Part shown: positions 964 through 21,104 of the stretch, in pieces
Position numbering within the stretch: position 1 is the stretch's first letter
Layout of the letters: each line of letters starts with the position of its first letter
NCBI GenBank assembly: GCA_008632985.1
Contig: QPGO01000349.1
Coordinates: 1-50,465, forward strand
DNA: 50,465 nucleotides
Reading direction: 5' to 3'
Origin: Psammoneis japonica
Lineage: Eukaryota
Made by a program: the position numbers and the translations under genes
The notes under the pieces: model-generated
Told to the model about the DNA's origin: nothing
The model's input: the letters and a program-made list of their open reading frames with translations, nothing else
The model's database searches: none

Positions 964-3900
964 TCATTGGAACTTGTTGCACATGAAGTTGACTCTAAAC
1001 GTGAAACTTTCCCATGCATCACACAGAAAACCAACATTCCCACGCTTCTGATCAACGCACCCTCTCTTGATGAACCAAGACATTTTGCAACGATTCACAG
1101 CTCGTTCATTCCCTGATCTGGTCACTGCGATGCACCCCGTTCTGAGAACCTTGTCGCCACCGAACATCTCATCCGCATCATCAGGACGCAGGCACAATTG
1201 ACCATGCGTCTGAGCTTCCAAAGTTGGGTGACATCCTTTGTCAAAAATGTTCAAAAATGGCATGTCTGAAGAAGGGTCTGTTTCGGAGAAGACTTTTTGC
1301 AGTTCCAGCATCCTCGCATCCTTGATGAGTCTGTCGTCGTCACTGTGACCCGTGACAAGAGGCAATCCGAACATCCAACAACAGAGTTGGGCGGCAATGC
1401 CAGCTTTTCCACAGCATATGTTGTGGTGGGAATCATGCAGGGCACGGTTCATGTCACCTGAAGATGGGGTGGGCAAAGGTGCGTTTGACGCGTCGTGCAT
1501 GACTGCCCGAGGTCCAGTCGTTTGGTCGAAGTGTCTGTTCCATGCTTCGTCTCTGAACTTTGCATCCTCTGCACAGGAGGCATGCATGGGCCATCGAGCA
1601 CGACAATCAAGCTCAACTTTAAGCCTGAACTCAAGGGCTTTCATGAGAACCCTGTACCCAACGTCACACTCAGATTCAAAGTCTTGCGATCGGCTCTTGC
1701 TTCGGCCATACGTGAACTCGAAGTGCAGCAACAGCTCTTCCAGCCAAGTCATTTTCGTCACAGTCTTCGCCATCTTGTCAAAGTCTCCAGCATAAATGAC
1801 ATTGGTGCACCGAAGCAAATGTTTTAAATCTCTGAATCCGGTGCGTCGCTTTGCTTCTTTTGGTGTAAGGGCTCGCAGTGACATTTTCGGAGAGTTCGGC
1901 GTTTCATTGGCAAGGCTTCTCGGGTCCATTTTCTGTGGGTCCGGCACTGATTGTTTTAGATCACTGTGGTTGGTACCTTCTCTTGCCATGGCTAAACGAG
2001 TCGGCAAGGACAGCTTTGATTCTTCCATGCTTGTTCTCTTTACGTGATGCAAGATCTCTCGTTCCGCACCATTTCCGTTCGACATTGTTTTTGCCGGCGC
2101 ATCATGACTCCTCTCCCCAACTTGCACTGGAGCTTGGAATGGAGGAATGGATATCACCTTATTTGAGCTTTTGGTTCTTTTACCTGTCACCATTTCCATT
2201 GGATGTTTGTCGCATGTCCTGAGGTCGGAACTTGTGCAAAACCGACCGTAGCCGAGTCGGTCCATCCACTCTCGTCGTCGGAAGACTTTTTGCTGGTGAG
2301 TCATCCACTTTGTAGGCGTTGCGGTTTCTTTTAATTTCGGGGGTAAATTTGGTACACGACTTAACTTTGAGTTCGTGTTGTCATTGCTGCACTCTTTCAC
2401 GCAACAATGAAGTGTTGCTTTTGGCTTCTTGCTTGGTTGCTGCTGTGTTGTATTTGTCACGTCCCCCAATGGTCGTTTGACGGAAGTCGGGGCTTTTGCA
2501 TTTTGTTGGTCACCTGTTTCAATGCCTTTGCCCCATCCTCTCTTTGTTGTGCGATCCTTTAGCAATGATTTGAGCTTGTTTGCTTTCTCTAGTCGTTTTT
2601 GGTGTTCCGCACCGTAGTCGTTTTGCTGTGTGCTAACGCCAGTGGCAGCTCGCTCGTGACGTAGCTTAAACCCTGTGGGGTCGTCAATGTTGGTAGACGC
2701 ATCTCCGCAAAAACGTTTGAAGTCCTCAAGCCCAAACAAGTGGGACATTGCATCGTCTCCCTCGCCCACAATCCTGTGCTCTTCACGTGTTGCCACGCCC
2801 TTGGGAGCATTCGGCATTTTGTCGACGAGAGCCATTTCACCATCTGTCTGATTCCTCGTATCCTGACTGTCAGCTTTGACTGCAATGTTCTTTTCAGCTT
2901 TAACCACGGGTCGACAGCACGATGCTTTATCTCGCAATAGACCAAGGTCCCTGGGATTCGGCTCACCGGGTGACATTTTGGCACGACCTGTGCTCTCTGT
3001 GTGTTGTTCCAGCAGATCGAGAACTGTCGTATTTCCACTGAGAGCTGGAGGGACTTTCCCTGCAGCCTTCATCAAACGGACAATGTCGTCTTTCAATTGG
3101 TCGGTTGGCACTTTTTCCGAAACCACATCAATGTCTTCCCTTCGAATGCGTCGTCGAAAGTCGCCAAGCACCTGGTTTGCCATGCCTCGAAACAGCAGCT
3201 GGCTCAATTGCACGGCTTCTGTGAATGAGTGAGTGCAAACGCATCGATGGTTTCCGAGATCTGCGGGGCCATTGTTCTTGCACCCGGCTTTGCAATCACA
3301 TTCCGCGGCAAGGAAGTGTTTCACAGAAATTGCGCTGCGAGCAAAGCACATCATCGACTTCATCGAGGCAAGCATTTTATGCGAAAGGATTGTGCAAACT
3401 TCATTGGCGTGTTTTGCGAGCATTGTGCTTGCGTTGAGAATGTCAGGCGATCCCTCATCCAATGCGTGCCTAACCGCCCGTTTGCAGATGCGCTCTCCAG
3501 TGTGAACCCTGGCATTCTTTGCCATCTCAATGATGTTTGATGGCACAACATGCTTGTACGAAAGTCTTTCACCTTTCTTTCGTCCATGGACAACAGTCAA
3601 GGAAGCGAGAACATGCATGAAGCCGACGACATCCTCAATGAGCACAACGTCATCCACCATGAGTTCCTCCACGTCTTGCACTTCAGCTTCCTTTGTTCGG
3701 AGGAAATCATTCTGGGACGGGTGCAGAGCTGAAGTGGGGAGAGACGGGCACTTCACCTTCTCCATTTCGGCATCAAAAATGTCGAACTCCCCCACGAGCA
3801 GCTTCTCATATAGCCACAGCACTTGTGTGTGTGAAGCTTTTGCTGGAACCTTCTGGCCTTTCTTCCGCAGCTGCAAGCGCGTGTCGCTTTCGTCCTCTGC

Positions 3901-5325
3901 TTCTGCCATGCCGGAAATGGATCCCCGAATGCACTCAATGCACAAGACTCGGCATCCCTCCAAAAACTCCTCGCACGATTCGTTCATCAAACAAAATCGA
4001 CATGGCGTCGCATCGCATGTTTCACACTTGTGCACTCCCTCTGCATCTAAAAATGGGTGAGATGACTCTGCCGAGCAACCTTTGCACATAGAAACAGCCG
4101 GCCCATCAATGATCGTAGTTTCAGAATCGGCGAAATCTTGATTGAATCGATCTAACTCCTTTGGCGCTTGAAACATGCATCCATCATTGGTTTTCTCAAA
4201 CATGAGAGCAGCCGCCACACACAACACGGCATTTTTATTTTTCAATGTTGCTCCAGCTAAGGAGGACATGTCATTTGCCAATGCATCGTGGAGCGCCGAA
4301 CCCGACAAACCACCAGCACAATGTTTCTGGAACACGACGGAGGCAGCCTTTGGACCCACTCCAGACATCCCTCCTGGGCAAACATCACAACCTGTCATTG
4401 GTCCCAACAATGCACGCTCCATTGGATCTTGTACCCTGTCAAATGATGGACAGTCTGGGGTGCGCCCATCCTCCGAATCAAAAGGACAACGTCCTAGCTT
4501 GGGCATGAGAATTTTGCTGATGAGGTCGGCGACGGCCTTCTGACCAGTGTAAACTTTGCAGCTGCGGATTGGCTCCTTTTTGGTTCCCAACTTTACATCT
4601 TTCATGACAATGTCACCCACATTGCTTTTGCCGTTTGGTCCAATGTACATGGGAAAGTCCGAATCTCCGGATGTCAAAAAGTCGACTTCACCATCTACAG
4701 CCAACTTTGCAACACAAGGATCCGCTTGCGTTGGCGAGACTTCAAAAGCAATGACTCCTTTGTCTCTACAGTCATGCGAATCAACAAATTCTTGCAATTT
4801 TGTTGTAAAGTCTTCCGGTGGCTGGAGCCGCTTTATGGCATTTTCTAGGCTTCGTATCTTCTTCTGGAAATCATCAACTGTTGCAGCGTGTTCAGCTGTG
4901 TTGTCATTCTCATTTGACAGAGATTGAAGCTCAGCTCTCCTCACAATGAGACGCACTGCTTTCTCAGCACTCTCTGCTCGACGAGAGCACGAGGCTCGCT
5001 TGGATGGGTGCCTTGCCGTGGCGTTGTCACAAACAATGTGTGCATCAATTCTCGAATCAGACAAAGCTCGAGCGATTCGTTCGACAGCCCCGTCTGGCGT
5101 GCATGATGATCGGTCGTGCACACACTTGTGTCCCACGAGATTTGCATCAATCGCACACTTCAAACGACGCATGGGTTGTTGCACCGCAATTGCTTCACCA
5201 GTGTTGCCAGGCGCGTCCGCATTCTGACGCGTGCCAGCAGCCTTCTGCTCCATAAGAAACATCACCACATCACATGGCAGCTCTTCTGTCTGCCACAACA
5301 CTTTGTCAAGACCTGATGTGCCCAT
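964..5325 (-). CDS. 1453-aa multidomain transposase: PIN/XPG-FEN1-like nuclease, Cys-rich finger, SWIM-like finger, THAP-like finger, PIF/Harbinger (ISL2EU-like, DDE_Tnp_4) catalytic domain
   Basis: XPG/EXO1-like motifs MGTSGL..., IDAN, QADPCVAKL, SGDSDF and H3TH-like GCDVCPGGMSGVGPKAA. SWIM-like CDCKAG...CVCTH. THAP-like CCVKECSN...REWM...TCDKH. C-terminal HDASN / GHSDD / DKGC(Y) / RSGNERAVNRCK match the Harbinger-type DDE layout. Termini of the element not found. Confidence 0.7.
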   Translation of the reverse strand: MGTSGLDKVLWQTEELPCDVVMFLMEQKAAGTRQNADAPGNTGEAIAVQQPMRRLKCAIDANLVGHKCVHDRSSCTPDGAVERIARALSDSRIDAHIVCDNATARHPSKRASCSRRAESAEKAVRLIVRRAELQSLSNENDNTAEHAATVDDFQKKIRSLENAIKRLQPPEDFTTKLQEFVDSHDCRDKGVIAFEVSPTQADPCVAKLAVDGEVDFLTSGDSDFPMYIGPNGKSNVGDIVMKDVKLGTKKEPIRSCKVYTGQKAVADLISKILMPKLGRCPFDSEDGRTPDCPSFDRVQDPMERALLGPMTGCDVCPGGMSGVGPKAASVVFQKHCAGGLSGSALHDALANDMSSLAGATLKNKNAVLCVAAALMFEKTNDGCMFQAPKELDRFNQDFADSETTIIDGPAVSMCKGCSAESSHPFLDAEGVHKCETCDATPCRFCLMNESCEEFLEGCRVLCIECIRGSISGMAEAEDESDTRLQLRKKGQKVPAKASHTQVLWLYEKLLVGEFDIFDAEMEKVKCPSLPTSALHPSQNDFLRTKEAEVQDVEELMVDDVVLIEDVVGFMHVLASLTVVHGRKKGERLSYKHVVPSNIIEMAKNARVHTGERICKRAVRHALDEGSPDILNASTMLAKHANEVCTILSHKMLASMKSMMCFARSAISVKHFLAAECDCKAGCKNNGPADLGNHRCVCTHSFTEAVQLSQLLFRGMANQVLGDFRRRIRREDIDVVSEKVPTDQLKDDIVRLMKAAGKVPPALSGNTTVLDLLEQHTESTGRAKMSPGEPNPRDLGLLRDKASCCRPVVKAEKNIAVKADSQDTRNQTDGEMALVDKMPNAPKGVATREEHRIVGEGDDAMSHLFGLEDFKRFCGDASTNIDDPTGFKLRHERAATGVSTQQNDYGAEHQKRLEKANKLKSLLKDRTTKRGWGKGIETGDQQNAKAPTSVKRPLGDVTNTTQQQPSKKPKATLHCCVKECSNDNTNSKLSRVPNLPPKLKETATPTKWMTHQQKVFRRREWMDRLGYGRFCTSSDLRTCDKHPMEMVTGKRTKSSNKVISIPPFQAPVQVGERSHDAPAKTMSNGNGAEREILHHVKRTSMEESKLSLPTRLAMAREGTNHSDLKQSVPDPQKMDPRSLANETPNSPKMSLRALTPKEAKRRTGFRDLKHLLRCTNVIYAGDFDKMAKTVTKMTWLEELLLHFEFTYGRSKSRSQDFESECDVGYRVLMKALEFRLKVELDCRARWPMHASCAEDAKFRDEAWNRHFDQTTGPRAVMHDASNAPLPTPSSGDMNRALHDSHHNICCGKAGIAAQLCCWMFGLPLVTGHSDDDRLIKDARMLELQKVFSETDPSSDMPFLNIFDKGCHPTLEAQTHGQLCLRPDDADEMFGGDKVLRTGCIAVTRSGNERAVNRCKMSWFIKRGCVDQKRGNVGFLCDAWESFTFRVNFMCNKFQ

Positions 5326-6851
5326 GGGTGAAGCGAGAGCATTGGGTGCTAGGATGAACGTGCCGTAGCAGCATCGGCCATCGGCACGTTTCGTTCATTG
5401 GCATGTGAGAGTGCGAGTGCAAATCGGAGGTTTTTTGAATTCACCTCACTGCGTGGGATGATGCCAAACAGCTCGCATGTGCATCCCACACAAAAACACA
5501 CTTCACACCAAAAACAAAACTCGGCAAGCTGTCCATCAGGCAATGCAAAGCTGCAAAGATTGTTTGTTGAAGCCATCCATTTCCAAGAAAAGTTCTGGAA
5601 AAGCACTTTGCAGTCAACGAGTGCTCTTGGGGGGGGGGGGGGCGACAGCACCAGCCATTCTCAAACCCACTGTCAAAGAGTCCCTTGCCAGCAGTGGGAC
5701 CTTCTGTCACTCACACAACCTTGTCACAGGGGGCAATGCAGTGCGGGCATTCCTGCATCTGTGGGCTGTCCACAACAACAACGCTGATTCTGCAGAAGCG
5801 CGAGTTGGAAAACGTGGCTCCCAGCACAAGACCTGTGACAGACAGGCTCCAGCCCCAGGCGGGACTTTTTGTGACATTTGCCCTGCAGAATTCTGCGCAC
5901 AAGCTCTGCAGTCCATGCTCTGGTCAATGGACACATTTGTCTTCGACACAAAATGAACGGCCAAGTTTGCAGTGCACACATCTCTGCTCGCACTCAAAGT
6001 TTTGGACAACACGCCTGCCCTGCACCATTCTTAACCGGCCCAAAATCAATTCGGGGTTTTGCATGACATTGTGGACAGAAACACTGCCTGCCTGCCAAAA
6101 AATTGGGGGCACGCAGAATTGGCACCAGAAGCTGTGCTGGGGATTTGAACGATGCGCAGCCCACGCACTGTGCAGGCACAACGGCTAGACATCACCCATT
6201 TCCATCAAAAATGTCAAGCTGCATGGGTTTTGGTGCATGTTCTGCATGTCTTCCCTCAATTTCTGACTTAAATGTGCAGGTTCTGGCGCAAATTCCATGT
6301 GTCTTCCTGTTTGCGATGGCCATCCCAACCCTGCCAGACTGTCGCGCGAAACCCCGAATTAACTTTGACTCTTTGTTTGCCACAGCGACACGCGCGAAAT
6401 TTTTTTTTTTTGCGTGCGTTGAAACGGGGCCACCATCAACAACACAACAAATGGAACGTCGCGGTTCCAAGTCATTGCAACAGATGGCACCCCAACACCA
6501 TGCGGGGTGATCGTCAACACGGCAAGGTGTGTTGTGACAGCTTGGTTTGTTGTTGCCTTGGCGTTGTTTTTTCACGTCGCATCTTACCTGCTGTGGCATT
6601 GGCATTTCTTGCATCACGACAGGCGTGACCGACCGACATTGACAGAAACGGTGTCATCGTTTTCGGCATCCTGCTGGCAGAATCTGGTGGAACAGCAAAC
6701 AAATCGGCAAGAATGCAACACAATGCTGTTGTTCTGTTGCATCAGAGTGTCCTTTTTCCCATTCAACATTCCCTCAGCTTACCCTTGCTCTTTTTGCTCT
6801 ATTTTTTTTTCTTTTCAGTGCAAAACAACCGTCTTTCGCGGTGTTGGTGAC

Positions 6852-9800
6852 ATGAGCGTCGGCAACATCATGGAGACAATGGACATCTCCATGCTTGCAT
6901 TCAGCTCCGATGACACATCTGTGGAGGACGCTGATTTGGAGTCCGGCGTTGCTCCCTTGGCCTCTGCTGAACAACCTGATGACGTGCCGGCACCAGCTCA
7001 GAGAGCACCTCGTCAAACAAATTCTGTGGCCCATGATGATTGGATTGCAGGACGATGTGCACTTTTTCATGTTGATGTGGAGCATGGAGGGAAGAAGTGT
7101 GGCATGCTGCAGCTCTCAGCTGTTGCAGTAGATCCAAATGACAAGTCTACACTCGGCGAATTTGATGAGCACATCAAGCCTCCAGAAGGAACCAAGTGGA
7201 CCGACGAGATGGAGAGGGCCTCCCAGGAGTCGCACAAACTCAAGCTCACTGATCCCCGCATGGCCAGTGCTGACAAAATGGAATTGGTTTGGCCAAGATT
7301 TTGCAAGTTTGTAGAAGACAAGTTGGATGCAGGCTCCAAGGTTGGGGATTCTGGTGGCATGGGGAGGCAAGGGAGGTGATTGCGAGTGCATGTTTCGTCT
7401 TGCTGAAGACACCCATCGCAAAACCTTGTCCATGCCTGAAGGGCTGAAGCACTTTTATGACCCAAGGAAGACAATTGAGCACTGCAAGTCCTGTGCCCTG
7501 AATGCCAAGACATCCAAAGTTGTTGGCTACAGCTTGGGAGAAATTTGGTGTCATGTGAAGAACAAGGAGGTGCTTCCTGAAGCTCACTCTTCCATTGTTG
7601 ATGCCAAGGCACAAGCTGATGTGGTGAATGACGATCGCCTCTTCAAATTTGTGGACAAAGGCAAGGGAATGGAGCTTCTATCTGATGTTTGGGCTGCCAA
7701 GAGAAAGAAGAGAGAGCTGCTGGATTCCGAGCTTGAAAGGCCTGTTCCACCTCGGTGGGAGAATGAGGGGTCCTCTAACTGGGAACCTGGATGGTCTGGA
7801 TCTTATGCAGGCCCTGGTGGAGGGGGTGTTTGTGGCCCATCATGGGCTGTGAAGCAAGCCTGCAAGTCTCTTGTTGACTTGTTTCTCTTCTTTGTCACGG
7901 TTGACGACTTAGAGGAGGTTGCCAAGGAGACCAACTTTTGTGCCAACGAAGAGTGGGTCAGGCCTGTGACTGAGCAAGAGTGGCAACAAATTAAAGATCA
8001 GAATGAGCAAGATGAGGAGCATGGGCATGCAACCAACTGTGAGATTGTGGCTGATTATGATCAGTTGGAGCTGGATTTTGATTTGATGGAGCAAGGCAGC
8101 CGGGGCTTTTTCATGGACGATGGAGACTCCCTCTTTGGTGGATCAATTTTTGACCCTGACAAGTGCAGCAGCAGCAGCAGCGCCTCTGAATCCAGCGACC
8201 AGTCCTCTCACTCCAGTGACACTGACTCATCGTTTGGGACGCACGGGAGCTTTTGGACGGTTTCTGATGATGAGAGCTCTGTCTCCTCTTGCGATTCTTC
8301 CGACTGGTCTCTTGGCAGCAGCGAAGCCTGCAACTCAGATGATGAGCTTGGGGATGAGTTTGAGGAAGAGCCCAAGAGGAGAGCCAGGTTGGTTCCATGT
8401 GAGGAGGACCACCCTGACAGCAGGAAGAGACACAAGGACAAAAAAAAGCCTTGGATCCAAGTCACTCCTGGGTTCCTCCTTGCTTGGTTTGGAGTTTTGT
8501 TTGTTCTGGCTGCAATGAAACTCCGGTGGCAAGACCTCCTGTGGATGGAAACTCATGACTTGGCAGTGCCATGGATTCAGAACTCCATGTCTCGAAATGC
8601 CTTCACCCAGATTCGAAGATTCATCCATTTCGTCGACAACAGAAAGTTGCCAAGGCACGGCACTTCAAGATGGCACCCATTGCAGAAGATAATCCCATTT
8701 GTGAACAAAGTTGGCAAAAGGCTAAGGGCCGGGTGGGTGATTGGAGAGAAGCTAACGGTTGATGAGTCCATGATTCTCTACAAGGGAAGGGCTGTAAAGT
8801 TTGTTCAATACATGCCCGCTAAACCCATCAAACACGGCATAAAAGTGTGGGCATTGTGCTGCGCAGAAACCGGATATCTATATGCATTTTATGTCTACAC
8901 TGGCAAGGACAATGATGATGCATCGCCACTCGAAGTTGTTTCAAGGTTGTTGGCTATGGACCCCGAACTAGTGTTGTCGGGAAAAGGACGCAAGCTGTAC
9001 ACCGACAATTTCTACACATCGGAACAGCTCATGAAACTGGTGTATGACACGTATGGCATGTTGGTGGTGGGCACCGTGAAGATGACGAAAAAGAAGTCAC
9101 GAACAGCAACCGACTTCCCCTTCCACAAACTGTCATCCGGAGCATTGTCCAAGGTGCCTCGTGGGTGGTTACGCTGGGCTCAGAAGACTGTGCAAGGAGA
9201 CAAGAGCAATTCGGCTGGGTTTGTAGTACAGGCAACAACTTGGAAAGACAGAAAACAGGTTGGCGTGTTGCACAACCACATGGTGGGCGTACCTGGGGAT
9301 CACAAAACGTTGCGGTGGGACAACGACGAGCACAGCCGAGTTCCAGTCTCGTCCCATGCGGTCATCCCCGACTATATCAAGTTCATGCGTGCTGTCGACA
9401 GGGAAGACAGGGAGACTGCTGACTGGTCTATCAGCTTGAAGGGAAACAGATACTACCTCCGCATCATGTACTACTGCATGGACGGGGTAACTCACGCAAT
9501 GAAAGTGATCACAAAAAAGCTCTCAACAGTGGGACACCCCTTTGAAAAATATGCCAAGACCACACGATGGAAGTTCAAGTGGATGATGGATCTGGGAATA
9601 CAGTGTATCAACAAAGGCATTAGCATGGATTGGACAAACATAAACGACCCCACCACGAAGCCAAAATGGGTCAGACAGAAGCCGTACGTACCTTGTGGCT
9701 GTGGAGAATGCTTTTTCTGCAAGCACGGCCTCACGCATGGAAAGACTCATCGGCCAAAGAAAGGGAGAAAGAGACTTGTACGGGAAGAAGATATTGTGCA

Positions 9801-10008
9801 CGACAAGAAAGCAATCAAGATACTGAACCATAGCAAAGACTGCATTGATTGCATAAGGAAGGCCAGATTGACGATGCCAGATGCCGATTACGCTACCTTG
9901 AGAAAAGGAAGTCGTACATCTTTGTACGGCTGTAGGAAATGTGGTGAAGCAATTTGCAAAGTGTGCTGGCCAGATTACGATCACCTAGGTCATATCAGGA
10001 ACAGGTAG
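6852..10008 (+). pseudogene. piggyBac (PGBD, DDE_Tnp_1_7-like) transposase with N-terminal DEDDh 3'-5' exonuclease domain; one +1 frameshift near 7345
   Basis: ExoI HVDVEHGG, ExoII LVAWGGKGGD and ExoIII AHSSIVDAK. Removing one G from GTTGGGGATT joins the two ORFs (KVGILVAW). An acidic/Ser-rich linker follows. piggyBac motifs MSRNAF..IRRFIHF, VDESM, QYMPAKPIKHGIKVW, YTDNFYTS, WKDRKQV and AVDREDR are present, with a C-terminal Cys-rich domain CIDC...CRKC...CKVC..DH. Confidence 0.9.
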
Positions 10009-10171
10009 GCATTACATAAAACTTAGTGAGTGACAAAAACATAACTTGCTTAGATGCCACAACATGACACAAGCTTACCTGCACCTATCTCTTTGAAGAT
10101 GCCGGTGGAAAACCTCATGCACAATACCCATTGCCCAGTGTTCTTTCCAACTGATGAATGATTGCTTTGTT

Positions 10172-10430
10172 GGTGTGTGTGCCCTCACCATTCCTTTAGC
10201 ATCGGCACCGGTGCCTCAATCCGAGAAAAAAGTAACACTGTGATGCTACCAAAAATCCGAGAAAAAAGTAATGCTGTGATGCTACCACGGCACAATGGTA
10301 TGCTCTCAATGAAATTCTTGGTGTGCGTACCCTCACCATTCCTTTGGCATCGGCCCCGGCGCCTCAATCCGGGAAAAACGTAATGCTGTGATGCTGCCAC
10401 GGCATAACGGTATACTCTCAATGAATTCTG
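10172..10430 (+). repeat. Internal direct repeats downstream of the piggyBac transposase
   Basis: Two copies of GTGTG..CCCTCACCATTCCTTT.GCATCGGC...CTCTCAATGAA about 148 bp apart, and three copies of AATCCG.GAAAAA.GTAA..CTGTGATGCT.CC (~10218, 10254, 10366). Confidence 0.85.
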
Positions 10431-11599
10431 ACTCTACAAGCAAACAATAGTAAGACAGATAATGTGCTCGTGTTAGTAAGTAATGCCAAGGCATTACATG
10501 AAATGCATTGAGTAAAAAAGAACAACGCGATAGATAACAATGTAACTTACATTGACACCTAAACAAAAGCATACTTCTTCTCGTTGGCCCCCCACATTGG
10601 TGATTCATAGCCAGAATATTATCTGCAACAGCAGCAACAATAGCAACCTTATGCATGTGAGCCAATTGCCGCAGAACAAACAGCAGCAACAACAGTAAGC
10701 ATAAATATGAAATAAGAAATGGCGTTGGAAAGGGTGGAAATCACCCGCAATGGTTGTTCTGCCTCAACGGCGAAGAAATAACATCTATGCGGCTCTGTCG
10801 GGGTGCAGCGCCGATGATGTGATGGTGGGTTGTTGGCGATAGGTCGAGGGAAAAAAAAACGGCCTCCGCGCACCGCGCAAAAAAATCCGTAGTAATTGGT
10901 TCCTCCTCTTTTAGGTGGAACTCTCTAGATCGAAGTCTGAAACCGAAAGATTTTGGATTGCCGCCCTCGCTGCTGTCCCTGCTTATTTTTCACGAGCTCT
11001 AATTTGCACAGAAGCCACATGTTGGTTTCTGTGCATTTACGTAGATTTTGCACCAATCGCATCGTAGAGGTGTGTTGTTCGCCGGCCCTGACGAACTCTT
11101 TCTCAGATGCAACACATTTTTCACGACGGCCGGCACATGACGCCGGCTCGGTGGACAGGTTTCGAGTTCTTTTCACGTAGATCTTACCGCAGACACACGG
11201 CACTCAGATTTATTTCAGCGCAAATCTACGCAGCTTTGTCGCAGATGGCACAGAAACCCGTGGCAAGGCTCTGTGCCATCGAAAATGCTCAGGACCTCGC
11301 CACGCGTTTCTGTGCACAAGCAGGGCTGTCAGAAAACAGAGCCATGACGATTGCCTGCACCAATCATTTTGCTGCATTTTGCGCTGGGCGTTCGAATTAA
11401 TTGCAACACATGACGGTCACTTCGGTGCGCACTTTTGCGCGACCCACGCGACATGACCAACATGCGTCAGTGTGCGGTGCTGGTTGTTTTGCTTCTGACC
11501 GTTCTGTCTTCTGTGAGGTTTCATGAGGCTGTCTGTGTGTGTTGATGTTGTCTAGTTGTGCATGTTGATGTTGTCCAAGGCAAGCTGCGTTGGATTAAG

Positions 11600-11989
11600 G
11601 ACGCGTTCCAGGTCTAGGTGGGACCTCGCACTGCTGAACTGTGACATCGACAGTTTTTTGAGTCTCGTCGTATGTCGCGCACGTAGATTTCTACGTGATT
11701 TTTTCGACATTTTGTGTCATTTTACGGTGCACTTGTTGAGCGATCCGTCCAACAACTTTTGACATTTTTTGTTACAGCGCGATTCTACAATGTCTTAAGA
11801 ATCGCGCAGGGCAGGCGAAGTTGCAAAAACATCGAGTGGTGAGAGGCATAATTGCACCACAAACTTGGCCGTTTATTTGATGTTGAAGATGAACATGTCC
11901 ATTAATTAAATTCTCGCACTACGGAGCTCGCACGTAGAATTCTACGGGCCCAATGTCACACGGAGTCCCACCCAGGGCTGGAACGCGTC
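11600..11989 (+). mobile_element. MITE family A, 390 bp, least TpA-eroded copy
   Basis: Termini GACGCGTTCCAG...GGTGGGAC / GTCCCACC...CTGGAACGCGTC; TSD TAAG (11596-11599, 11990-11993). Confidence 0.95.
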
Positions 11990-12697
11990 TAAGTGAATGT
12001 GGAAATGTGCGAAATTTACGCATTGTTGCAGTTTCTTTGCTGGATGGTTGGCCCTCATTTGTGGCCACACTCAATCCGCGGCGGCTCAAGTGAAAGTCCA
12101 TGTGCATGTGTTTTGCGCATTGATGCGGTTGTCTTCACCAAATGGTTGTTTGCAATTTGCTCAATTCCATTCTTTCTGGCCATGCTTCTTCTGAAGGGAC
12201 TTTGCTTGCTCCTTCTCCTGCTCCGCCATCTCCTCCTCGGTGAAAAATCTCCCCGACCGCTGTGGAATTGCCGCTGCACATGCTGCCTTTGGCTCCTCCA
12301 TGGTTGAGTCATCCTTGGGCGCGACTGTTGTTTCCACATGATGACTGTCCACTGTCGTGTTGTCTTGCACAAGTGCAGAAGTGACATCAAAATTTCCCGA
12401 AGCAAGGTCAAACGCCGCTCTTGCTTCTTCCAAGGTGATCTCCTCTTCGTCTTCCTTTTCATCAATGACTGAAGAAGTTCCGCATGTGTCTGCACCTTTT
12501 TCTTGTGTCCTCACCAGTTTTCTTTGGCTCGTCTGCCTTCTTTGTTTGTTGTTGCAAATCCATGTTTTCTCCATTGCTGCGTTTTCTGTGACGGTTGCGT
12601 TTGCGTTTCTTGGTTTGTTGGTTAAAATCCATTCGACGTTGTGTGACGCATGTGTGGATTTCTGCGCAATGTGCTGATCTAATCGAAGTGTTTTGTT

Positions 12698-15600
12698 TTA
12701 CGAAATTTCCGCATTTTTACGGTTGGGGTCGCTGGATGGTTGTGCAGTGGTTGAGCATCCTAATCCAATGTTTGCGCACCACATCAACATTTCTGCGTGC
12801 TGTTGCTGAGAAAAATGCGTGGCGCTTCTCTCCTTCATGAGTCTCATCAAGGCTTCGTAGCCTTCTGAGACCTTGCACTTTCGCAGGTCCTTGCTTGGTG
12901 GCTTTCGCATGAACAGCCCTTCTCTGGTCTTTACTCTGGAGAGCACAACATGCACCCAATTCTGAGTGTAGCTCCAAGAGTGTGCAAACAACTGCGGGAC
13001 TCCACTCCCTTGCAGTTTGTGCCCTGCAGTGGCATTGTTGATGACAAATGGCAGCTGGGTTGCCTTCAGTTGGAAAGTGTGCCTTTGTTTGTCGCCTTCT
13101 TCTAAAATTGGGCTGGGCTTGGCGATGCAAGCCCTGAAAGCATTTGTTTTTGGCTCAACTAAAAACTTCGCGGGGTCGATGCTTTTGTTGCAGTGTTCCA
13201 ATGCAACATGGTCTACCTGACCAGCAAGTGCAGCAGGAATGCCAATGTTGTTGTCTAAAGCCACCAGTCTTGGCTCCTGTCCTGGTTTGAGAACGACCTT
13301 GTCAACAGTGGCTTGCGTTCCGTTTGCTTGACCGTTTGCCACATTTTCGTTGAAAGGTGTCATGACTCTGCATCCTCTGTAAATTCGTAAGACTGGATCC
13401 ATTCTTCCTGATTGCATGACAACGTCTCCTTCACCACAGTTGTTCCAGAAGCTGTTGCAAACCGGAAATGGTTGGTAGAGTCTCGTGCCATTCTGCACCT
13501 GCAAGTCGTCACTGAAAATCAACATTGAGTCAAGGACGTCTCCATCTCTTCCATGCAGTGTTTTCACTCTTTTTTCGAACAGGCCAGCGTCAATTGCATC
13601 TCTGTCCTTATTTGCGTGCGTGGCATGGCGGAGGTCACTGGGCAGATCATCTTCGTTCTGAACTGCTCGTTCGTTGATGCACTCTATGTCATCAACTGCA
13701 ATCTCACCAGTGCGGAATCTCTTGAGCAGTTTTCCCCATGATGGATCGTCTTTAAACCTGTGTACACCACGAAGTTCCACGCAGCAGTTGATCCACTCGT
13801 GAAACTCGGGACATGCATCTTTGTGTGGTGGTTTCACTCCTTTTCCGACTGGCTCTAGTTGCCTGAGGTCACCTGCGAAAACAATGTTCATGCCACCGCA
13901 CGGCTTGCTTAATTCACTCTTCAACACTGTCAAATTCTCATGGAGTTTTTCTAGTTCTCTCTTGCTTGCAAAAGAAATCTCGTCTACCACCAAAAGTCTC
14001 GTGTCTGACCATGCTTCAATTTGCTCTTCGGTTGTTTGCTTTCTTCTCATGAGGTGTGCAACTCGGTGGATTGTGTCCCCTTTGAGAACAGTGGCAGCCA
14101 CTCCGGTCAGTGCAGTCACTCTGATTGTGCTTGTTGTGAACGGCTGCTCAACAAGCGAGCAACACTCTCTTCCGCATTCCACGACGAGGTGTTTTGTGGT
14201 TGATTTGCCACTTCCACCTGCACCATGTAAAAAACACACAAGTTGCAACGTTCCATGTCTTTGCACTTCCACGAGTTTCTTCAATCAGCGAAGGTTTGTT
14301 GCAAATTCGTGTCTGCCATTTCTCCTGTTAAGTCCATTGCGTGACGTCTCGTCTTGAAGAGCGTCTTGACAGTGAGTGAGCACAAAGGTTCCTGCCAGAA
14401 TTTCAAAGGCACGCTGCTGTTGCCTGTCCAGTCTTGCTTTCCCAGCCCAGTCTACGACACTCACTGCAGATCCGTTTGCTTGACGTACATCGACGTGTTC
14501 TTCCAGACCTGTTGCATCCTCAAACGACCTTCTTGTTCTTTGCGTTCTAGTCAGCATCACTCGAACAATGTCGTCTCTTGACAGTGGTCTGCTGTGGATG
14601 TGTTGTTGCACTCCTTCATTCTGGTCTTCCTCGTCGGTGTCATCGCCGCCCTCTAGATTCTCAAAAAGTTGTCGTTCATTGACCTGGCTTTCCTCGTTTG
14701 GTGGGTCAGTGTGCATGTCTGCCAAGCATTTGCAACCACCCATGTGCGAACCTTTCTGTCTTGCACGTTTACCGCTCAAATGCGCAGGAACAACTGCTTG
14801 GTCGCTCAACCCAATGTCATCGTCTTCTGGCTGCTCTGCCATTTCTTCCAAGAGTGCATCCAGTGGTTGACCCTGAACGGCGCCTGAAAGACCTTCTTCC
14901 TCATCACTTTCGCAACAGTCAAACGCAACGTCAGCAGGTCTAAATTGCTCTGTCTTTCTTTGCAGATCGTCAGATGCACTTTTGAGATGAAGGCAGTTGG
15001 ACTTGGCATCCTGTGGGTTCTGCAAGAAGTTCAAGTTTTCCTCTGTGACAACACCGGCTGCTGCGGAGAGTTGGAATTCACGCAGGCATGTGTGGGCCAT
15101 TGGTTTGAGTTCCGTCATTGTTCTGCAAGGCACAAACAAGGCCAATGCCAACTTGCAGTGCAATTCTTTGTCCAGTGTTGTTGGTTGCTGCGGATTCACA
15201 AGGCAACTGCCAAACTTGGCTGCATCAGGAAAATCACACTGAAGTGCTTTTAACAATCGCGGTTGCTGTCGCTGTCTGACACCTTGAAGAAACTCATTCT
15301 TTGTTGAATTGCAAGACGGGTGCCTGTGCGCTCTGTCATCGAACATCATCATGCCGTGTTCGTTTTTCTTTGTGTTGCGAAGAACTTCGCATTCACTAAA
15401 AAACGCAAACGGACTGAGATTCTCCAGTGCTGTTGGACGACACAGGCAGTGCAAGGCCTGGCATTGGAAGAACGGTGNNNNNNNNNNNNNNNNNNNNNNN
15501 NNNNNNNNNNNNNNNNNNNNNNNNNNNNNNNNNNNNNNNNNNNNNNNNNNNNNNNNNNNNNNNNNNNNNNNNNNNNNNNNNNNNNNNNNNNNNNNNNNNN

Positions 15601-18430
15601 NNNNNNNNNNNNNNNNNNNNNNNNNNNNNNNNNNNNNNNNNNNNNNNNNNNNNNNNNNNNNNNNNNNNNNNNNNNNNNNNNNNNNNNNNNNNNNNNNNNN
15701 NNNNNNNNNNNNNNNNNNNNNNGTAGTTCGAAGCACTTCGTCGTACGATGCAGCATCATCTTTCTGGGTGTCTTTTAGGATGTGCTTGGTCGTGCATTGA
15801 GTGGACAGTCCAGGCATCAATGAAGCAATGTTTGTGTTGCATGTCAGTTTTGATCTGCTCATTGCAGGGCACGACACGTTTTGAAAAGCATCGCACTTTC
15901 TCCTCTTCGGAACAACTTCCTTCACGCACCGACACGCAAAAGTCCCATCCCAGCTGAACCACTTTATCTGAGTGTCATCTGCGTTCCTTGCTGAATTATT
16001 TGGACACGAAGCAGCTGGTTGCCTGTGACGGCAGTCACCTGGTTTGAGCTCCTCTCGTTTCCTTTTCCTTGACAGCGCGTCCAGTTCCTCGTGTGGGGTT
16101 TTTTTATGCATTTTACGTAACTCTGCGCATTTGGGAAAACACGACTTCGTAACGTGCATGTGATGGTTGTAAGCTGCGTCCGGTGTGCATGCCTCTGTTG
16201 TCCCTTGCAGACCACTTCGCTGGCATTGTGCACACATTGCTTTTAGTCGCTTTGCATGGTTGTCTGGATGGCGAGTCAGGCCAGGTGCACGGTGCCGTGA
16301 CTGTAAAAAGCTTTCTACAAACTCGACGTTTGTCCAGTGCTTGGTGCAGTGATGACAACAAGCAAACATTCCGTTCTTCGACTGCTGGCCGTCTTTGTGC
16401 CTCAGGTTTCTTAGCTGTTGGTCGTCTGCTGCTTTTGGAGAGGTGCAACGCATTTTTGGTGCTGCACAGTCATGATCGAATGCTTCACGCAACGCGTTGG
16501 TGCTGAAGTCCTCGCTGCAGATTAATTCCGTGCTGCAGATCTTCTGAACTGTGTTGGTGAGGTGCTCAGCACCTTCGCGTCGGATCTGTCTCATTGGCGA
16601 ATGCAGTTTCTCTCTTGCATTGTTGATTGATGCGAGCCAGATCTGCATGTGTCCGTGTGCTGTCAGACGTCCCTGCTCCTCAACTGCGGCTAAAAATGCG
16701 GCTGGCCTGCCAGTGTAGAAGTTAAAGTTTTCTCTTGGTTGGTTGGTGCTCAGATCCCAACCCACCACCTCTTCCATTGCAATGTCAAACAAGCACTCGA
16801 GTGCAAAGGCTGTTAGACCGGGAAACTTTAGACGTGGTTCATTGCGTTGCTTGGCCCTGCCAGCAAGAATTTCGTCCGTCAGTTGTGTCACGTCTTCGTT
16901 TGGGTCCAGGATGACACCCGAGTGCAGTTGCACAAGAAACGAATTTGCATCGTCCGGACTGACGGTTAAGAAAATGCCACCCTGACCAAAATGATGCTGA
17001 CGAGTTTCGGCGTTTCTCCTCATTTTCTTTGCTGCTTCGTCGCTGTGTGGCAGAGACGCAGATGCAACGTCGAGTGCGCGCAAAAAGTGGTGCCCGAGTC
17101 CACAATCTCTTCTCTCGCCCAAGTTGCGATCACAAACAGCTCCATCCACATCGTCCACTGTCAGTTCGTTTGCAAACTGTGCAGCCTGATTCTTGTCCCT
17201 GACTTTCCACCCTGCGCTCTGTGGCATCCTTTGCTTCATTGTCAAGTTGCAGCATGTTAACACGAAGAGCTGCTCGTGGAAGTGAGGCTGGGAAATCCGT
17301 GCTGAGTGGTTGGCACAGTGTGCAAGGTTGGTGCCATCTGCAAGACTTCCGTCTTTCTTCATTCTCGTCTCATTGATTCCTCCTCTGCCAAAAGGAAACT
17401 GCAGCAGACACGCGTCAATGAAGTTGTTGCCTTTGAAATCACTCGCAGATTCTTCAGACAACTGTGCTTGCACCTCTAAATCAAATCCGTTGGCAGCAGC
17501 TTTGTGTGCAAGATCTTTGAAGCAGCCCAGGTTGCGCTGACCACCGGTCGCAGGAGACATGGTTCCATCAGGAAAGCAAATGTGAAATGACTCTGAGGTC
17601 TCAATGTTCGCATTTTCTCCTTCTTCTTTGCCGGTGCTGTCGACAAGCACGGGATTCCGCAGATTATGCCTGACTTCGTCTAGATTTGTCTGTTGGTGCA
17701 CCCACTCTTGGTTGTGGCACAACAGCCATTCCATCGCCCTTGGCATGCAGTGCGTCCCAACTCTGTTCTTTGAACGCGCAAGTTGTCTTTGCTCCGGAGT
17801 CATCTTTCCAGTCATCAGTGCAATCACATTCTGATGTAAATTCAGTGCGTCGAAGTGCACAACAGTTCTTACGATTCTTTGCATCTTGACTTTGTAGCAT
17901 GTCAGACTTCCCTGAAGCTTCTTCTGTTTGCCACCAAGGCAACTGAAGCAGCATCCGCATGTTTTCACTGGTGTGAGCATTGCCAATTCTACTTCGGTTA
18001 GAGACAACAGTTCGTGCAGCGGGGTGCCGAAACAGCAGTTGTTCGCTGTCGCGTACATTGGCACAACGGCTCTTCCCAGGCTTCTTCGGCATTCGCTGCA
18101 GCAAGTGAATCCGTCGACGCGTCGTCTGTCTTCCTGCACTGCGCATTGGGCGCGGGGAGAAAGCAGCAGGTCTTTGATCCAATCAGCATCTTCATGCTCT
18201 ACAGTGTGGCAGGACTTGAGACGATCAGATGCGCTGTTCCAGTCTGAAGGGGTGAGCAAGTTTCTTGCTGATTCCAGTGTTTCGAGCGGCAAGCAGCAAA
18301 CTTCTCTAGGTTTCAGCAGAACGTCACAGACCAAACATGCGTGTGGTCTAAATTCTCTGTCTCCATGTGGACAAAGCATCTCAAACTTTCTGTTGATTGC
18401 ATTGCAAACACGGGAGTTGGCCTCGTCCAT
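12698..18430 (-). pseudogene. Helitron-type Rep/HUH endonuclease - PIF1 helicase (RepHel, ~1910 codons, one in-frame TGA at 14285-14287, N gap 15478-15722)
   Basis: N-terminal Cys fingers and the LTEVELAML segment. Rep motifs FLTVSPD, VEEQGRLTAHGHMQIW (HUH) and CTTKHILK (YxxKY with both Tyr mutated). PIF1 motifs GAGGSGKS, TGVAA, VVDEIS, GDLRQL, GHKLQG and VVLSRV. The two listed ORFs are adjacent and in the same frame. Confidence 0.92.
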
Positions 18431-18504
18431 TTTAATTTAAGCTGATGCTTCAACTCGACAAATTTCAAGAAGTCACTCAGCAAAAACAGTTGTTTTTTCG
18501 GTGC

Positions 18505-20915: not shown

Positions 20916-21104
20916 GACGCGTTCCAGGTCTAGGTGGGACCTCGCACTGCTGAACTGTGACATCGACAGTTTTTTGAATCTCGTCGTATGTCGCGCACGT
21001 AGAATTCTACGTGATTTTTTGATATTTTGTGTCATTTTACGGCACACTTGTTGAGCGATCCGTCCAAAAACTTTTGACATTTTTTGTTACAGCGCGATTC
21101 TATA
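20916..21104 (+). mobile_element. MITE family A, 5' half (rest lost in N gap 21105-21436)
   Basis: GACGCGTTCCAGGTCTAGGTGGGACCTCG start, near-identical to the 11600 copy. Confidence 0.9.

What the first reader, a model, noticed from the sequence alone, without database searches (positions are those of the whole stretch)
8690..11400. TpA-intact island inside an otherwise eroded piggyBac: sharp boundary within one ORF
Seen: the 5' half of the transposase (to ~8690) is TpA-poor with likely Tyr->Cys/His changes (NFCAN, GVCGP). The DDD core, Cys-rich tail and 3' flank keep abundant TpA and Tyr (GYLYAFYVY, RYYLRIMYY). Both halves have the same insertion age, so age cannot explain the difference. Inference: targeting depends on copy number/homology (as in RIP) or local chromatin, or the 3' part was refreshed by recombination or gene conversion.
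Basis: partly seen in the sequence, partly recalled or inferred. Interest (0 to 1): 0.75.

Follow-up and report, generated by a model that had tools for sequence, protein, structure and literature searches.

The report
Sharp TA-erosion edge inside diatom transposon
In a diatom-type transposon gene, one half has had nearly every TA step rewritten to CA or TG while the other half is untouched, and the edge fits neither copy number nor protein selection but lies beside a spliced antisense RNA, so the mutation process probably follows local chromatin state.

Summary
TA/(TA+CA+TG) jumps from 8/258 to 52/279 inside the ORF between 8683 and 8690 (0 of 2000 shuffles). The intact island ends at about 11227, not 11400. 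A separately intact 390-bp MITE at 11600-11990 makes it look longer.

The gene is an exonuclease-piggyBac fusion known from Thalassiosira-like diatoms. In 29 related loci the 5'/3' TA ratio is 0.70-1.63. Here it is 0.16. Conserved Tyr is kept in 2 of 9 columns on the 5' side (5 are now His or Cys) and in 11 of 12 on the 3' side.

Summed contig depth shows no copy-number step at 8690. CpG loss steps at 8588-8593. A mismatch-free 1184-nt contig with three GT..AG gaps on the minus strand shows a spliced antisense RNA lying inside the island.

Best reading (0.4): the TpA mutator acts on silent chromatin domains and spares this transcribed unit. Exchange with an intact copy, chance tract edges and an assembly chimera remain possible.

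Earlier notes of this scan report the same TpA erosion on other windows of this genome. The only paper found is a 2026 preprint on Bigelowiella natans.

The parts
6852..7346 (+). Transposase gene, first part (N-terminus and start of the DEDDh exonuclease domain). It is TA-eroded.
   Evidence: It aligns to the exonuclease region of relatives P0002, P0003, P0005 and others. Relatives P0003 and P0017 carry PF00929. The window's own piece gives no Pfam hit.
7347..7347 (+). One extra base in a G run, which shifts the reading frame.
   Evidence: The frame changes between ...GSKVG and ILVAWGG relative to all aligned relatives. Contigs of a sister copy leave one base out at 7344 (table 4).
7348..8689 (+). 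Transposase gene, eroded part: rest of the exonuclease domain, an acidic/Ser-rich linker, and the first ~84 residues of the PF13843 domain.
   Evidence: TA 8 against CA+TG 244, TA o/e 0.10. Tyr-conserved columns now read His (7450, 8554) or Cys (7483, 7939). CpG o/e is 0.36 over 6852-8689.
8637..8753 (.). Left edge of the TA-intact island. The best estimate is between 8683 and 8690.
   Evidence: Change-point search and 2-lnL support interval. The CpG change-point is at 8588/8593.
8690..10008 (+). Transposase gene, intact part: DDE core, Cys-rich tail and TAG stop.
   Evidence: TA 52/279, TA o/e 0.61, CpG o/e 0.70. 11 of 12 Tyr-conserved columns are kept. All invariant acidic columns of alignment A2 (D472/E473, D553, D589, D634, D684, D687) lie right of residue 448, the position of the edge.
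10009..11227 (.). Intact non-coding flank. It includes a tandem duplication at 10167-10429 and, from about 10800-10900, a different high-copy repeat.
   Evidence: TA 45/187 for 10009-10801 and 13/70 for 10802-11227. Direct repeats D1 and D2. Summed depth rises from 146-295 to 1945-4556 at the 10802 bin, and the own-copy contig ends at 10896.
9293..10787 (-). Spliced antisense transcript. Exons 10787-10551, 10433-10079, 9984-9692, 9591-9293; introns 10550-10434, 10078-9985, 9691-9592. RNA cover continues left to about 8874.
   Evidence: Run X2 contig of 1184 nt with 0, 0, 0 and 1 other letters in its four blocks (table 8). The skipped parts read GTAAGT..GTAG, GTAAGC..CTAG and GTACGT..CCAG on the minus strand. 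No Pfam family on the minus-strand ORFs.
11228..11599 (.). Eroded stretch between the island and the MITE.
   Evidence: TA 3/84, TA o/e 0.14.
11600..11990 (+). A 390-bp MITE with 25-nt terminal inverted repeats and target duplication TAAG. It is intact and is read here as an independent, young insertion.
   Evidence: Inverted repeat I5. Alignment of 8 copies with 4-bp variable target duplications. TA 15/73. Summed depth about 200,000 against about 100-130 for single-locus contigs.
11991..12619 (.). Eroded high-copy repeat to the right of the MITE.
   Evidence: TA 0/115 for 12021-12619. Summed depth 3300-4500.

Best explanation
The gene is one copy of a diatom exonuclease-piggyBac transposon. 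It lies in DNA that has undergone a TpA-specific A:T-to-G:C mutation process (TA becomes CA or TG on either strand), together with ordinary CpG decay.

I propose that this process is aimed at a position, meaning a silent and probably methylated chromatin domain, and not at a sequence family. On this reading the eroded domain (about 4865-8683) runs from the upstream repeats into the transposase gene. It stops, within roughly one nucleosome length, where an actively transcribed unit begins. That unit is the spliced antisense RNA at about 8874-10800 plus a few hundred bases on either side, and the region 8690-11227 therefore kept its TA and most of its CpG.

Shown: the step, its direction, the absence of a copy-number step, the absence of a protein-selection signature, the nearby CpG step, and the antisense RNA.

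Inferred: that transcription or chromatin state sets the edge, that an adenine deaminase is the agent, and that the two halves are the same age.
For: Direction of change:
- Of the 40 best-supported differences to other copies that one search lists (977 more are not shown), 20 are window CA/TG against TA elsewhere and 11 are window CA/TG against CG. Two run the other way and 7 are other changes.
- Conserved Tyr is kept in 2 of 9 columns on the 5' side (5 are now His or Cys) and in 11 of 12 on the 3' side, Fisher p = 0.002.

The island is unmutated, not merely less mutated:
- Its TA o/e of 0.60 lies inside the range 0.41-0.91 seen for the same part of the gene in 29 relatives.

Not protein selection:
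- 31 of the 51 island TAs sit at codon positions 2-3 or 3|1, where a change is often silent.
- The non-coding flank is at least as TA-rich as the coding part.
- The share of TAs in Tyr codons is the same on both sides (4/11 against 20/51).

Not copy number:
- Summed depth is alike on both sides of 8690.

Position rather than element:
- The island runs past the likely 3' end of the piggyBac (about 10.8-10.9 kb) into a repeat with 10-40 times more depth.

Shared edge of two processes:
- The CpG change-point is at 8588/8593 (49 of 2000 shuffles reach it).
- TA and CG o/e correlate over 97 bins, Spearman 0.65.

RNA:
- An antisense contig with three canonical introns matches the window exactly.
- Own-sequence RNA contigs of the eroded half have depth 3.4-5.4 against 44 for the antisense contig (table 8).

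Precedent:
- In Bigelowiella natans a TpA-only hypermutation has stable region limits. The larger hypermutable region there is single-copy and transcriptionally silent (preprint 10.64898/2026.01.13.699255, Results read).
Against: The link to transcription rests on one coincidence. If a 1.93-kb RNA span were placed at random in the 7.2 kb that was laid, it would fall wholly inside the 2.54-kb island about 12% of the time (my arithmetic).

The run that gives the RNA is labelled 'DNA?' by the tool. That it is RNA is my inference from the three GT..AG gaps and from its near-zero depth on a roughly 2000-copy MITE.

Contig depth is one figure per contig, and the tool warns against ranking parts of a gene by it.

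Cause and effect could run the other way, because erosion may itself destroy promoters and splice sites.

The CpG step is only modestly significant (p about 0.025). CpG is also kept in 6000-7000, where TpA is lost, so the two processes do not always share domains.

The right side of the island is a patchwork. In other copies 10972-11328 seems to be absent (joint with only 30 letters on its shorter side), so part of the right-hand intactness could be youth.

No contig in the printed tables bridges 8490-8874, so contiguity across the edge is not independently confirmed.
Confidence: 0.4

Rival explanations
1. Homologous exchange. The 3' half was replaced from an intact sister copy by gene conversion, crossing-over, or template switching during gap repair after excision. 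The two halves would then differ in how long they have been exposed to the mutator.
For: The junction is perfectly colinear with relatives, as exchange between homologues would leave it. Intact or less eroded sister copies exist. One expressed contig over 6818-7411 differs at 23 places. Of the 20 listed, 18 are TA- or CG-type with the window as the eroded side, and it lacks the frameshift. Several contigs of own and sister copies end between 8490 and 8672 (table 8).
Against: The own-sequence contig of the island has depth 101, against 128 for the eroded half, so no identical donor remains in the genome. The intact state continues about 330 bases past the likely end of the element into another repeat family. 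The CpG step would also have to be explained by the same exchange, though that is possible.
Confidence: 0.2
2. Chance tract edges. The mutator works in separate kb-scale tracts, and the island is simply a gap between two tracts. Transcription or chromatin plays no part.
For: The window is a mosaic of segments with TA fractions from 0.000 to 0.28. Eroded DNA lies on both sides of the island and again between the island and the MITE. The coincidence with RNA has about a 12% chance expectation.
Against: The CpG decay, a different chemistry, steps at nearly the same place. In B. natans the mutations of one line are sparse and spread over a fixed region, not clustered in tracts.
Confidence: 0.15
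3. Assembly chimera. An eroded copy and an intact copy were joined by the assembler in a stretch that they share.
For: The window is a scaffold with two N gaps. Other copies at 84-96% identity exist on both sides. No printed contig bridges 8490-8874, and RNA contigs stop at 8669 and start again at about 8874.
Against: No RNA contig of an intact version covers 7428-8632. The depth there (2.2-5.6) is consistent with own-type contigs alone. An eroded copy and its intact counterpart differ every 20-30 bases, which leaves few long shared words. Earlier unchecked notes of this scan report sharp tract edges in many other windows of this genome.
Confidence: 0.1
4. Homology- or copy-number-dependent targeting, as in fungal RIP. 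Only the part of the element shared with other copies was mutated.
For: The 5' end (6223-7427) has two to three times more summed depth than the rest of the gene. A deletion derivative joining 6739 to 10483 exists.
Against: The depth step is at about 7427, not at 8690. Depth is alike in the bins on either side of 8690 (499 and 427). The ~2000-copy MITE and a 20-45-fold repeat are intact inside or beside the island, while low-copy DNA is eroded. The B. natans hypermutable region is single-copy.
Confidence: 0.07
5. Purifying selection kept TA in the catalytic core while the rest decayed.
For: All invariant acidic residues and the Cys-rich tail lie in the intact part.
Against: 31 of the 51 TAs in the intact coding part are at positions where a change is often silent. 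The non-coding flank is as TA-rich as the coding part (TA fraction 0.24). The gene carries a frameshift.
Confidence: 0.02

Closest known systems
TpA-restricted hypermutation of integrated giant-virus and virophage DNA in Bigelowiella natans (Mettrop et al., bioRxiv 10.64898/2026.01.13.699255; abstract, Results and Discussion read)
   Same: Only TpA is hit. The outcome is TpG or CpA depending on the strand. Foreign or repeat DNA is the target. The hypermutable regions have fixed limits. The larger region there is single-copy and transcriptionally silent. Long-term TpA depletion goes with CpA+TpG enrichment.
   Different: A different lineage (diatom against chlorarachniophyte). The depletion here is much deeper (o/e 0.10, and 0.00 over kilobases, against 0.45 there). 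The targets here are transposons. The edge here lies inside one gene and is resolved to about 120 bases. CpG decay accompanies it here. No mutation rate has been measured here.
Repeat-induced point mutation (RIP) of Neurospora and other fungi (details recalled; abstracts of PMC7296669, PMC2621366 and PMC3318451 seen in the listing)
   Same: Dense, dinucleotide-specific transitions that disable transposons, with fairly sharp limits.
   Different: The chemistry is opposite: RIP turns CpA into TpA and enriches TpA, whereas here TpA is removed. RIP depends on duplication, whereas here no copy-number step matches the edge.
CpG islands and 5-methylcytosine decay (established knowledge, recalled)
   Same: A dinucleotide is lost by deamination-type transitions in silent, modified DNA and kept in unmodified, transcribed islands. 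Here the CpG o/e itself rises from 0.36 to 0.70 near the same edge.
   Different: The main dinucleotide lost here is TpA, for which no base modification or enzyme is known in diatoms.
ADAR-type A-to-I editing with a 5' U preference, and ADAT2/3 DNA editing (as discussed in the preprint)
   Same: A-to-G change with a T (U) before the edited A.
   Different: Those act on RNA, or on DNA only in special cases. Here the sense-antisense overlap, which would form double-stranded RNA, is the spared part and not the mutated one.
piggyBac superfamily transposons (PF13843)
   Same: The window's gene hits PF13843 (E = 5e-40). Relatives have TTAA target duplications and CCC...GGG terminal repeats.
   Different: This family carries an N-terminal DEDDh exonuclease domain. 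The window's own termini could not be found.

Membership tests
piggyBac superfamily transposase | DDE_Tnp_1_7 (PF13843) domain | tested here: met
   E = 5.1e-40, residues 375-723 of the 897-aa ORF, profile positions 27-342 of 349.
piggyBac superfamily transposase | Conserved acidic catalytic residues and a Cys-rich C-terminal tail | tested here: met
   The window keeps all invariant Asp/Glu columns of the 17-sequence alignment A2 (D472/E473, D553, D589, D634, D684, D687) and the CxxC...CxxC tail. Which of these form the catalytic triad is recalled, not tested.
piggyBac superfamily transposase | TTAA target duplication and short terminal inverted repeats (CCC...GGG) | tested here: inconclusive
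   Met in relatives: L015/L016 (4245 bp), L028/L029/L030 (3396 bp) and the right end of L001/L002. In the window no such end was found, even when eroded TTGA/TCAA forms were allowed. The TTAA at 6359 belongs at least as well to a small inverted-repeat element at 6046-6362 (I3).
TpA-specific hypermutation (B. natans type) | Changes fall on TpA and give TpG or CpA | tested here: met
   20 of the 40 listed differences to sister copies are of this type with the window as the mutated side, and 2 run the other way. Five of 9 conserved Tyr columns now carry CAY or TGY codons. CA and TG outcomes are balanced: 9 against 6 among the listed sites between 6673 and 7330, counted by me from the output.
TpA-specific hypermutation (B. 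natans type) | Confined to regions with fixed limits, independent of copy number | tested here: met
   The edges are at 8683/8690 and 11227/11231. Summed contig depth shows no step at 8690. This is contig depth only.
TpA-specific hypermutation (B. natans type) | Raised de novo mutation rate measured in mutation-accumulation lines | not testable with these tools
   This needs laboratory lines.
Repeat-induced point mutation (RIP) | C-to-T transitions, mostly at CpA, which enrich TpA | tested here: not met
   TpA is depleted (o/e 0.10) and CpA/TpG are enriched (1.45/1.55) in the mutated half.
Repeat-induced point mutation (RIP) | Mutation limited to duplicated sequence | tested here: not met
   The depth step is near 7427, not 8690. 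High-copy sequence is intact in and beside the island.
Hypomethylated, transcribed island (CpG-island-like) | CpG kept inside and lost outside, with the same limits | tested here: inconclusive
   CpG o/e is 0.36 against 0.70. The change-point at 8588/8593 is reached by 49 of 2000 shuffles. However, 6001-7000 keeps CpG (0.8-1.0) while it has lost TpA.
Hypomethylated, transcribed island (CpG-island-like) | Transcription from the island and absence of 5mC | tested here: inconclusive
   A spliced antisense contig lies inside the island. That the run is RNA is inferred. No methylation data are available.

The most novel reading that the evidence does not exclude
Diatoms may have a chromatin-directed adenine mutator. 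On this reading, TpA sites are converted to TpG or CpA only in silenced DNA, and the process halts with nucleosome-scale precision at the edge of any transcribed unit, even an antisense non-coding RNA inside a transposon. 'TpA islands' would then be the A:T counterpart of CpG islands. They would serve as a fossil record of which parts of each repeat were silent and which were active in the germ line.
Probability: 0.3. Interest if true: 0.85.

Novelty: new variant of a known kind. Interest (0 to 1): 0.68.

Why it matters
A TpA-specific mutator has been reported only once, in a 2026 preprint on an unrelated alga, and its targeting rule is unknown. This locus is a natural experiment on that rule. 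A single colinear gene is mutated on one side of a roughly 120-base edge and untouched on the other.

The comparison removes sequence family and protein selection as explanations, and, as far as contig depth can show, copy number as well. What remains is position: chromatin or transcription state, or a past exchange with an intact copy. That turns the question 'what does the mutator recognise?' into tests that can be run on this one locus with methylation maps, strand-specific RNA and long reads.

There is also a practical warning. TA-to-CA/TG changes can never create a stop codon and they remove TAA and TAG, so eroded transposon genes stay open. The window has 97 ORFs of 130 codons or more in 50 kb. 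ORF length is therefore no sign of function in this genome.

Tried and rejected
- Whole genome: none is held for this window, so self-BLAST copy numbers could not be computed.
- Other piggyBac copies in the window: none. Self-BLAST of 5500-12500 found only the MITE family and local duplications.
- Termini of the window's element: no inverted repeat between 6034-6860 and 10009-11600 beyond 9-14-base chance matches, and no TTAA-CCC or GGG-TTAA even with eroded forms allowed.
- MITE as the piggyBac terminus: rejected. Its target duplications are 4 bp but variable (TAAG, TCCA, GGAA, TTGT, TCCA), not TTAA.
- Coding role for the antisense RNA: 0 Pfam families on 4 minus-strand ORFs.
- Host genes in the window as an unmutated baseline: 49 of the 97 ORFs of 130 codons or more were scanned (I dropped the shorter of overlapping ORFs). 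Only transposon families were hit: PIF1, Helitron_like_N, DUF6570, RT, RNase H, integrase. The baseline was therefore taken from 80 metagenome relatives instead.
- Strand bias of the mutator: none seen. TG/(TG+CA) is 0.46-0.57 in the eroded parts next to the gene.
- RNA holders: no run is on record as RNA.
- Run X3 covers only the MITE (2 of 30 bins) and is uninformative.
- Parts without RNA cover (8670-8873, right of 10802) are holes in contigs, not proof of silence.
- Empty-site joints across the MITE (11594/11596 to 11991/11992) and the joint 10971 to 11329 have only 20-30 letters on their shorter side. That is below the tool's 31-letter rule, so they are hints only.
- Earlier scan notes on this place or on the words boundary, RNA or piggyBac: nothing.
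- Literature: 4 full-text searches found no paper on TpA erosion in diatoms or on exonuclease-piggyBac fusions. Only the B. natans preprint turned up. Its supplementary tables are closed and were not seen.


Full report
**What is there**

The window (50,465 bases, 577 N in two gaps) is extremely poor in TpA: o/e is 0.16, with CpA and TpG at 1.58 and 1.59 and CpG at 0.66. It holds 493 TA in all. None lies between 8057 and 8689, and from 8690 on there is one about every 25 bases.

I scored each TA, CA or TG site as TA or not. A single change-point search then puts the edge between 8683 and 8690 in all four spans tried that contain it:
- Inside ORF 7315-10008 the counts are 8/258 against 52/279 (LRT 36.3, 0 of 2000 shuffles as high).
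- For 2750-12017 they are 48/1177 against 131/701.
- The 2-lnL support interval is 8637-8753.

An optimal partition of the whole window returns 8690-12017 as one segment (TA fraction 0.187) at both penalties. Its neighbours are 4865-8683 (0.027) and, at the lower penalty, 12021-12619 (0.000). It is the largest TA-rich segment of the window.

**Refining the right edge**

Positions 11600-11990 are a 390-bp MITE with 25-nt terminal inverted repeats. Six other full or partial copies lie in the window, plus an inverted half copy at 5840-6034.
- Its target duplications are 4 bp but variable, so it is not a piggyBac derivative.
- Its summed depth in the genomic run is about 200,000, against about 100-130 for single-locus contigs.
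- Some copies in the window keep their TA and others have CA or TG at the same sites.

I therefore treat the MITE as an independent, young insertion. With it cut out, the right change-point is 11227/11231 (111/537 against 35/683), and 11228-11599 is eroded (3/84). The island proper is 8690-11227, not 8690-11400.

**What the gene is**

ORF 7315-10008 hits PF13843 (E = 5.1e-40, residues 375-723). Of the 29 proteins found:
- P0001 covers 98% of it at 47% identity.
- A Thalassiosira exigua protein covers 98% at 41%.
- P0003 and P0017 carry PF00929 (a DEDDh exonuclease) in front of PF13843.

The alignment shows the same architecture in the window: exonuclease, an acidic/Ser-rich linker, transposase core, Cys-rich tail. 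The start of the exonuclease lies in another frame (6852-7346), and one extra base at 7347 separates the two parts. The edge at 8690 falls in an Ile codon about 84 residues into the PF13843 domain. The alignment runs through it without any gap.

Relatives from metagenomes have textbook piggyBac ends, TTAA followed by CCC...GGG, with whole elements of 3396 and 4245 bp. I could not find such ends in the window.

**Is the 5' half eroded, or naturally TA-poor?**

Three controls say it is eroded.
1. None of 80 related metagenome loci has TA o/e below 0.51. In the 29 loci that cover both parts with at least 600 bases each, the 5'/3' ratio of TA o/e is 0.70-1.63 (median 0.85). The window gives 0.10/0.60 = 0.16, and its 3' value lies inside the relatives' range of 0.41-0.91.
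2. I took columns where at least half of at least 8 relatives have Tyr. On the 5' side the window keeps Tyr in 2 of 9. Five are His (CAC, CAC, CAT) or Cys (TGC, TGT), one is Trp and one Phe. On the 3' side it keeps 11 of 12, with none His or Cys (Fisher p = 0.002). NFCAN is one of these columns (20 of 22 relatives have Tyr). GVCGP is not.
3. Direct comparison with sister copies in the sequencing runs. Of the 40 best-supported differences listed (977 more are not shown), 20 are window CA/TG against TA elsewhere and 11 are window CA/TG against CG. Two run the other way and 7 are other changes. One contig of run X2 over 6818-7411 differs at 23 places. Of the 20 listed, 18 are of these two kinds, and it lacks the extra base. 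A nearly identical, less eroded and frameshift-free sister copy therefore exists, and the erosion of the window's copy is recent relative to ordinary divergence.

**What does not explain the edge**

Selection on the protein:
- 31 of the 51 TAs in the intact coding part are at codon positions 2-3 or 3|1, where changes are often silent.
- The share of TAs in Tyr codons is the same in both halves (4/11 and 20/51).
- The non-coding flank 10009-10801 has the highest TA fraction of all (45/187).

Copy number:
- The genomic run's summed contig depth is 355, 272, 310, 328, 499 in the five bins before the edge and 427, 374, 562, 351, 525, 346 after it.
- The only step within the gene is near 7427.
- These are contig depths, which the tool warns are crude.

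A recent identical donor:
- The own-sequence contigs have depth 128 (7792-8490) and 101 (9957-10896), so the island is not present twice.

Strand bias:
- None was seen.

**What coincides with the island**

First, CpG. Its o/e is 0.36 in the eroded coding part and 0.70 in the intact part. The change-point is 8588/8593, about 100 bases from the TpA edge, and 49 of 2000 shuffles reach it. Across the window, TA and CG o/e correlate (Spearman 0.65 over 97 bins). Exceptions exist: 6001-7000 keeps CpG but has lost TpA. Relatives L012, L056, L058 and L066 have lost CpG but not TpA, so the two processes are separable and the TpA process is lineage-specific.

Second, RNA. Run X2 holds an 1184-nt contig that matches 9293-9591, 9692-9982, 10077-10433 and 10551-10787 with 0, 0, 0 and 1 other letters. 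On the minus strand the three skipped parts (100, 94 and 117 bases) read GTACGT..CCAG, GTAAGC..CTAG and GTAAGT..GTAG. This is a spliced antisense transcript. Together with X2's near-zero depth on the ~2000-copy MITE, it tells me that X2 is RNA-derived, although the tool labels it 'DNA?'.

X2 depth by bin is:
- 23-52 from 8874 to 10801;
- 0.8-5.6 from 7428 to 8873, from own-sequence contigs of depth 3.4-5.4;
- about 0-2 right of 10802.

The 0.82 in bin 8633-8873 is what record 11 alone would give (37 bases at depth 5.35).

The RNA-covered span therefore lies wholly inside the island, about 185 bases from its left edge and about 430 from its right edge. Under random placement within the 7.2 kb laid, this would happen about 12% of the time (my arithmetic). 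It is suggestive, not significant. The minus-strand ORFs hit no Pfam family.

**Position or element?**

The own-copy genomic contig ends at 10896. Summed depth jumps from 146-295 to 1945-4556 at the 10802 bin. In relatives the 3' end lies a few hundred bases after the stop codon. The piggyBac therefore probably ends near 10.8-10.9 kb, and the island continues for about 330 bases into another repeat.

Right of it lies an eroded Helitron on the minus strand, with PIF1 at 12701-14284 and Helitron_like_N at 15725-18436. This favours a positional domain.

There is a caveat. A joint from 10971 to 11329 in other copies (only 30 letters on its shorter side, so weak) suggests that 10972-11328 may be a further insertion, whose intactness could reflect youth.

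**Interpretation**

The simplest account of both edges is a mutator that works on domains of silent chromatin and spares a transcribed unit. That account covers the nearby CpG step, the lack of a copy-number step, the lack of a selection signature, and the RNA.

This matches the one published precedent. In B. natans, TpA-only A:T-to-G:C hypermutation is confined to two regions with fixed limits. The larger one is single-copy and transcriptionally silent, and the authors suggest an ADAT-like adenine deaminase (preprint 10.64898/2026.01.13.699255; abstract, Results and Discussion read; supplements not seen).

I give this reading 0.4. The rivals are:
- exchange with an intact sister copy (0.2);
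- tract edges unrelated to transcription (0.15);
- an assembly chimera (0.1);
- RIP-like homology dependence (0.07);
- purifying selection (0.02).

The sense-antisense overlap is the spared part, which argues against editing of double-stranded RNA as the route.

**Novelty**

Four full-text searches found no description of TpA erosion in diatoms. Earlier notes of this scan report the same erosion in other windows of this genome (8 of 55 notes were shown). They are unchecked AI notes and gave me the lead to the preprint.

What this locus adds is a within-gene edge that separates the candidate targeting rules.

One side result follows by logic from the codon table. TA-to-CA/TG changes cannot create a stop codon, and they remove TAA and TAG. 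Eroded genes therefore stay open. This explains the 97 ORFs of 130 codons or more in this window, including a 1476-codon ORF with no Pfam family.

Noticed in passing
window 6852-10008; proteins P0001-P0028; loci L001-L080: This is a family of piggyBac transposases with an N-terminal DEDDh (PF00929-type) exonuclease domain. It is found in Thalassiosira species and widely in marine metagenomes (197 confirmed stretches). One search found no paper on such a fusion.
   Followed up: partly
window 11600-11990, 39378-39768, 42014-42411, 36207-36594, 35539-35926, 20915-21102, 25561-25757, 5840-6034: A ~390-bp MITE with 25-nt terminal inverted repeats and 4-bp variable target duplications. Its summed depth is about 200,000 against about 100 for single loci. 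Copies in the window range from TA-intact to eroded at the same sites.
   Followed up: partly
window 6046-6362: A small inverted-repeat element (arms TTCGGGGTTT... / ...AAACCCCGAA) flanked by TCAA on the left and TTAA on the right. It may be a piggyBac-type MITE whose left TTAA target copy has been eroded to TCAA.
   Followed up: no
window 12701-18436 (-): An eroded Helitron, with a PIF1 helicase ORF at 12701-14284 and DUF6570 plus Helitron_like_N at 15725-18436. TA o/e is 0.21.
   Followed up: no
window 967-5394 (-) and window-wide: A 1476-codon ORF with no Pfam family, among 97 ORFs of 130 codons or more in 50 kb. Loss of TAA/TAG and the inability of TA-to-CA/TG changes to make stop codons inflate ORF lengths here.
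   Followed up: partly
window 6818-7411 (run X2 contig): An expressed sister copy of the 5' part. It is less eroded, lacks the frameshift, and differs from the window almost only at TA and CG sites. Its RNA cover is not seen beyond 7411.
   Followed up: partly
window 10007-10488 and 10167-10429: This stretch is absent or replaced in another copy (joint 10006 to 10483 with 25 other letters). It is bounded by an 11-base direct repeat (10007 and 10489) and contains a tandem duplication. It also carries an exon and an intron of the antisense RNA.
   Followed up: no
window 10691: The genomic run shows A and G at equal depth (101 of 202), and the RNA contig has G. This is probably an allelic CpA/CpG difference between haplotypes.
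   Followed up: no
L028 2601-3600 (also L029, L030): In another organism's copy of the family, TA o/e dips to 0.24-0.34 and CA/TG rises to 1.5-1.65 over about 1 kb of the 3' coding part, then returns to about 0.8. This may be a mild tract of the same kind of erosion with a different edge.
   Followed up: no
L012, L056, L058, L066: Relatives with strong CpG depletion (o/e 0.13-0.29) but normal TpA (0.55-0.68). CpG decay without TpA erosion is common in other hosts of this family.
   Followed up: no
window 40158-41796 (+): Remains of a Ty3/gypsy-type retrotransposon (RT, RNase H, integrase zinc-binding domain) in a region with almost no TA.
   Followed up: no
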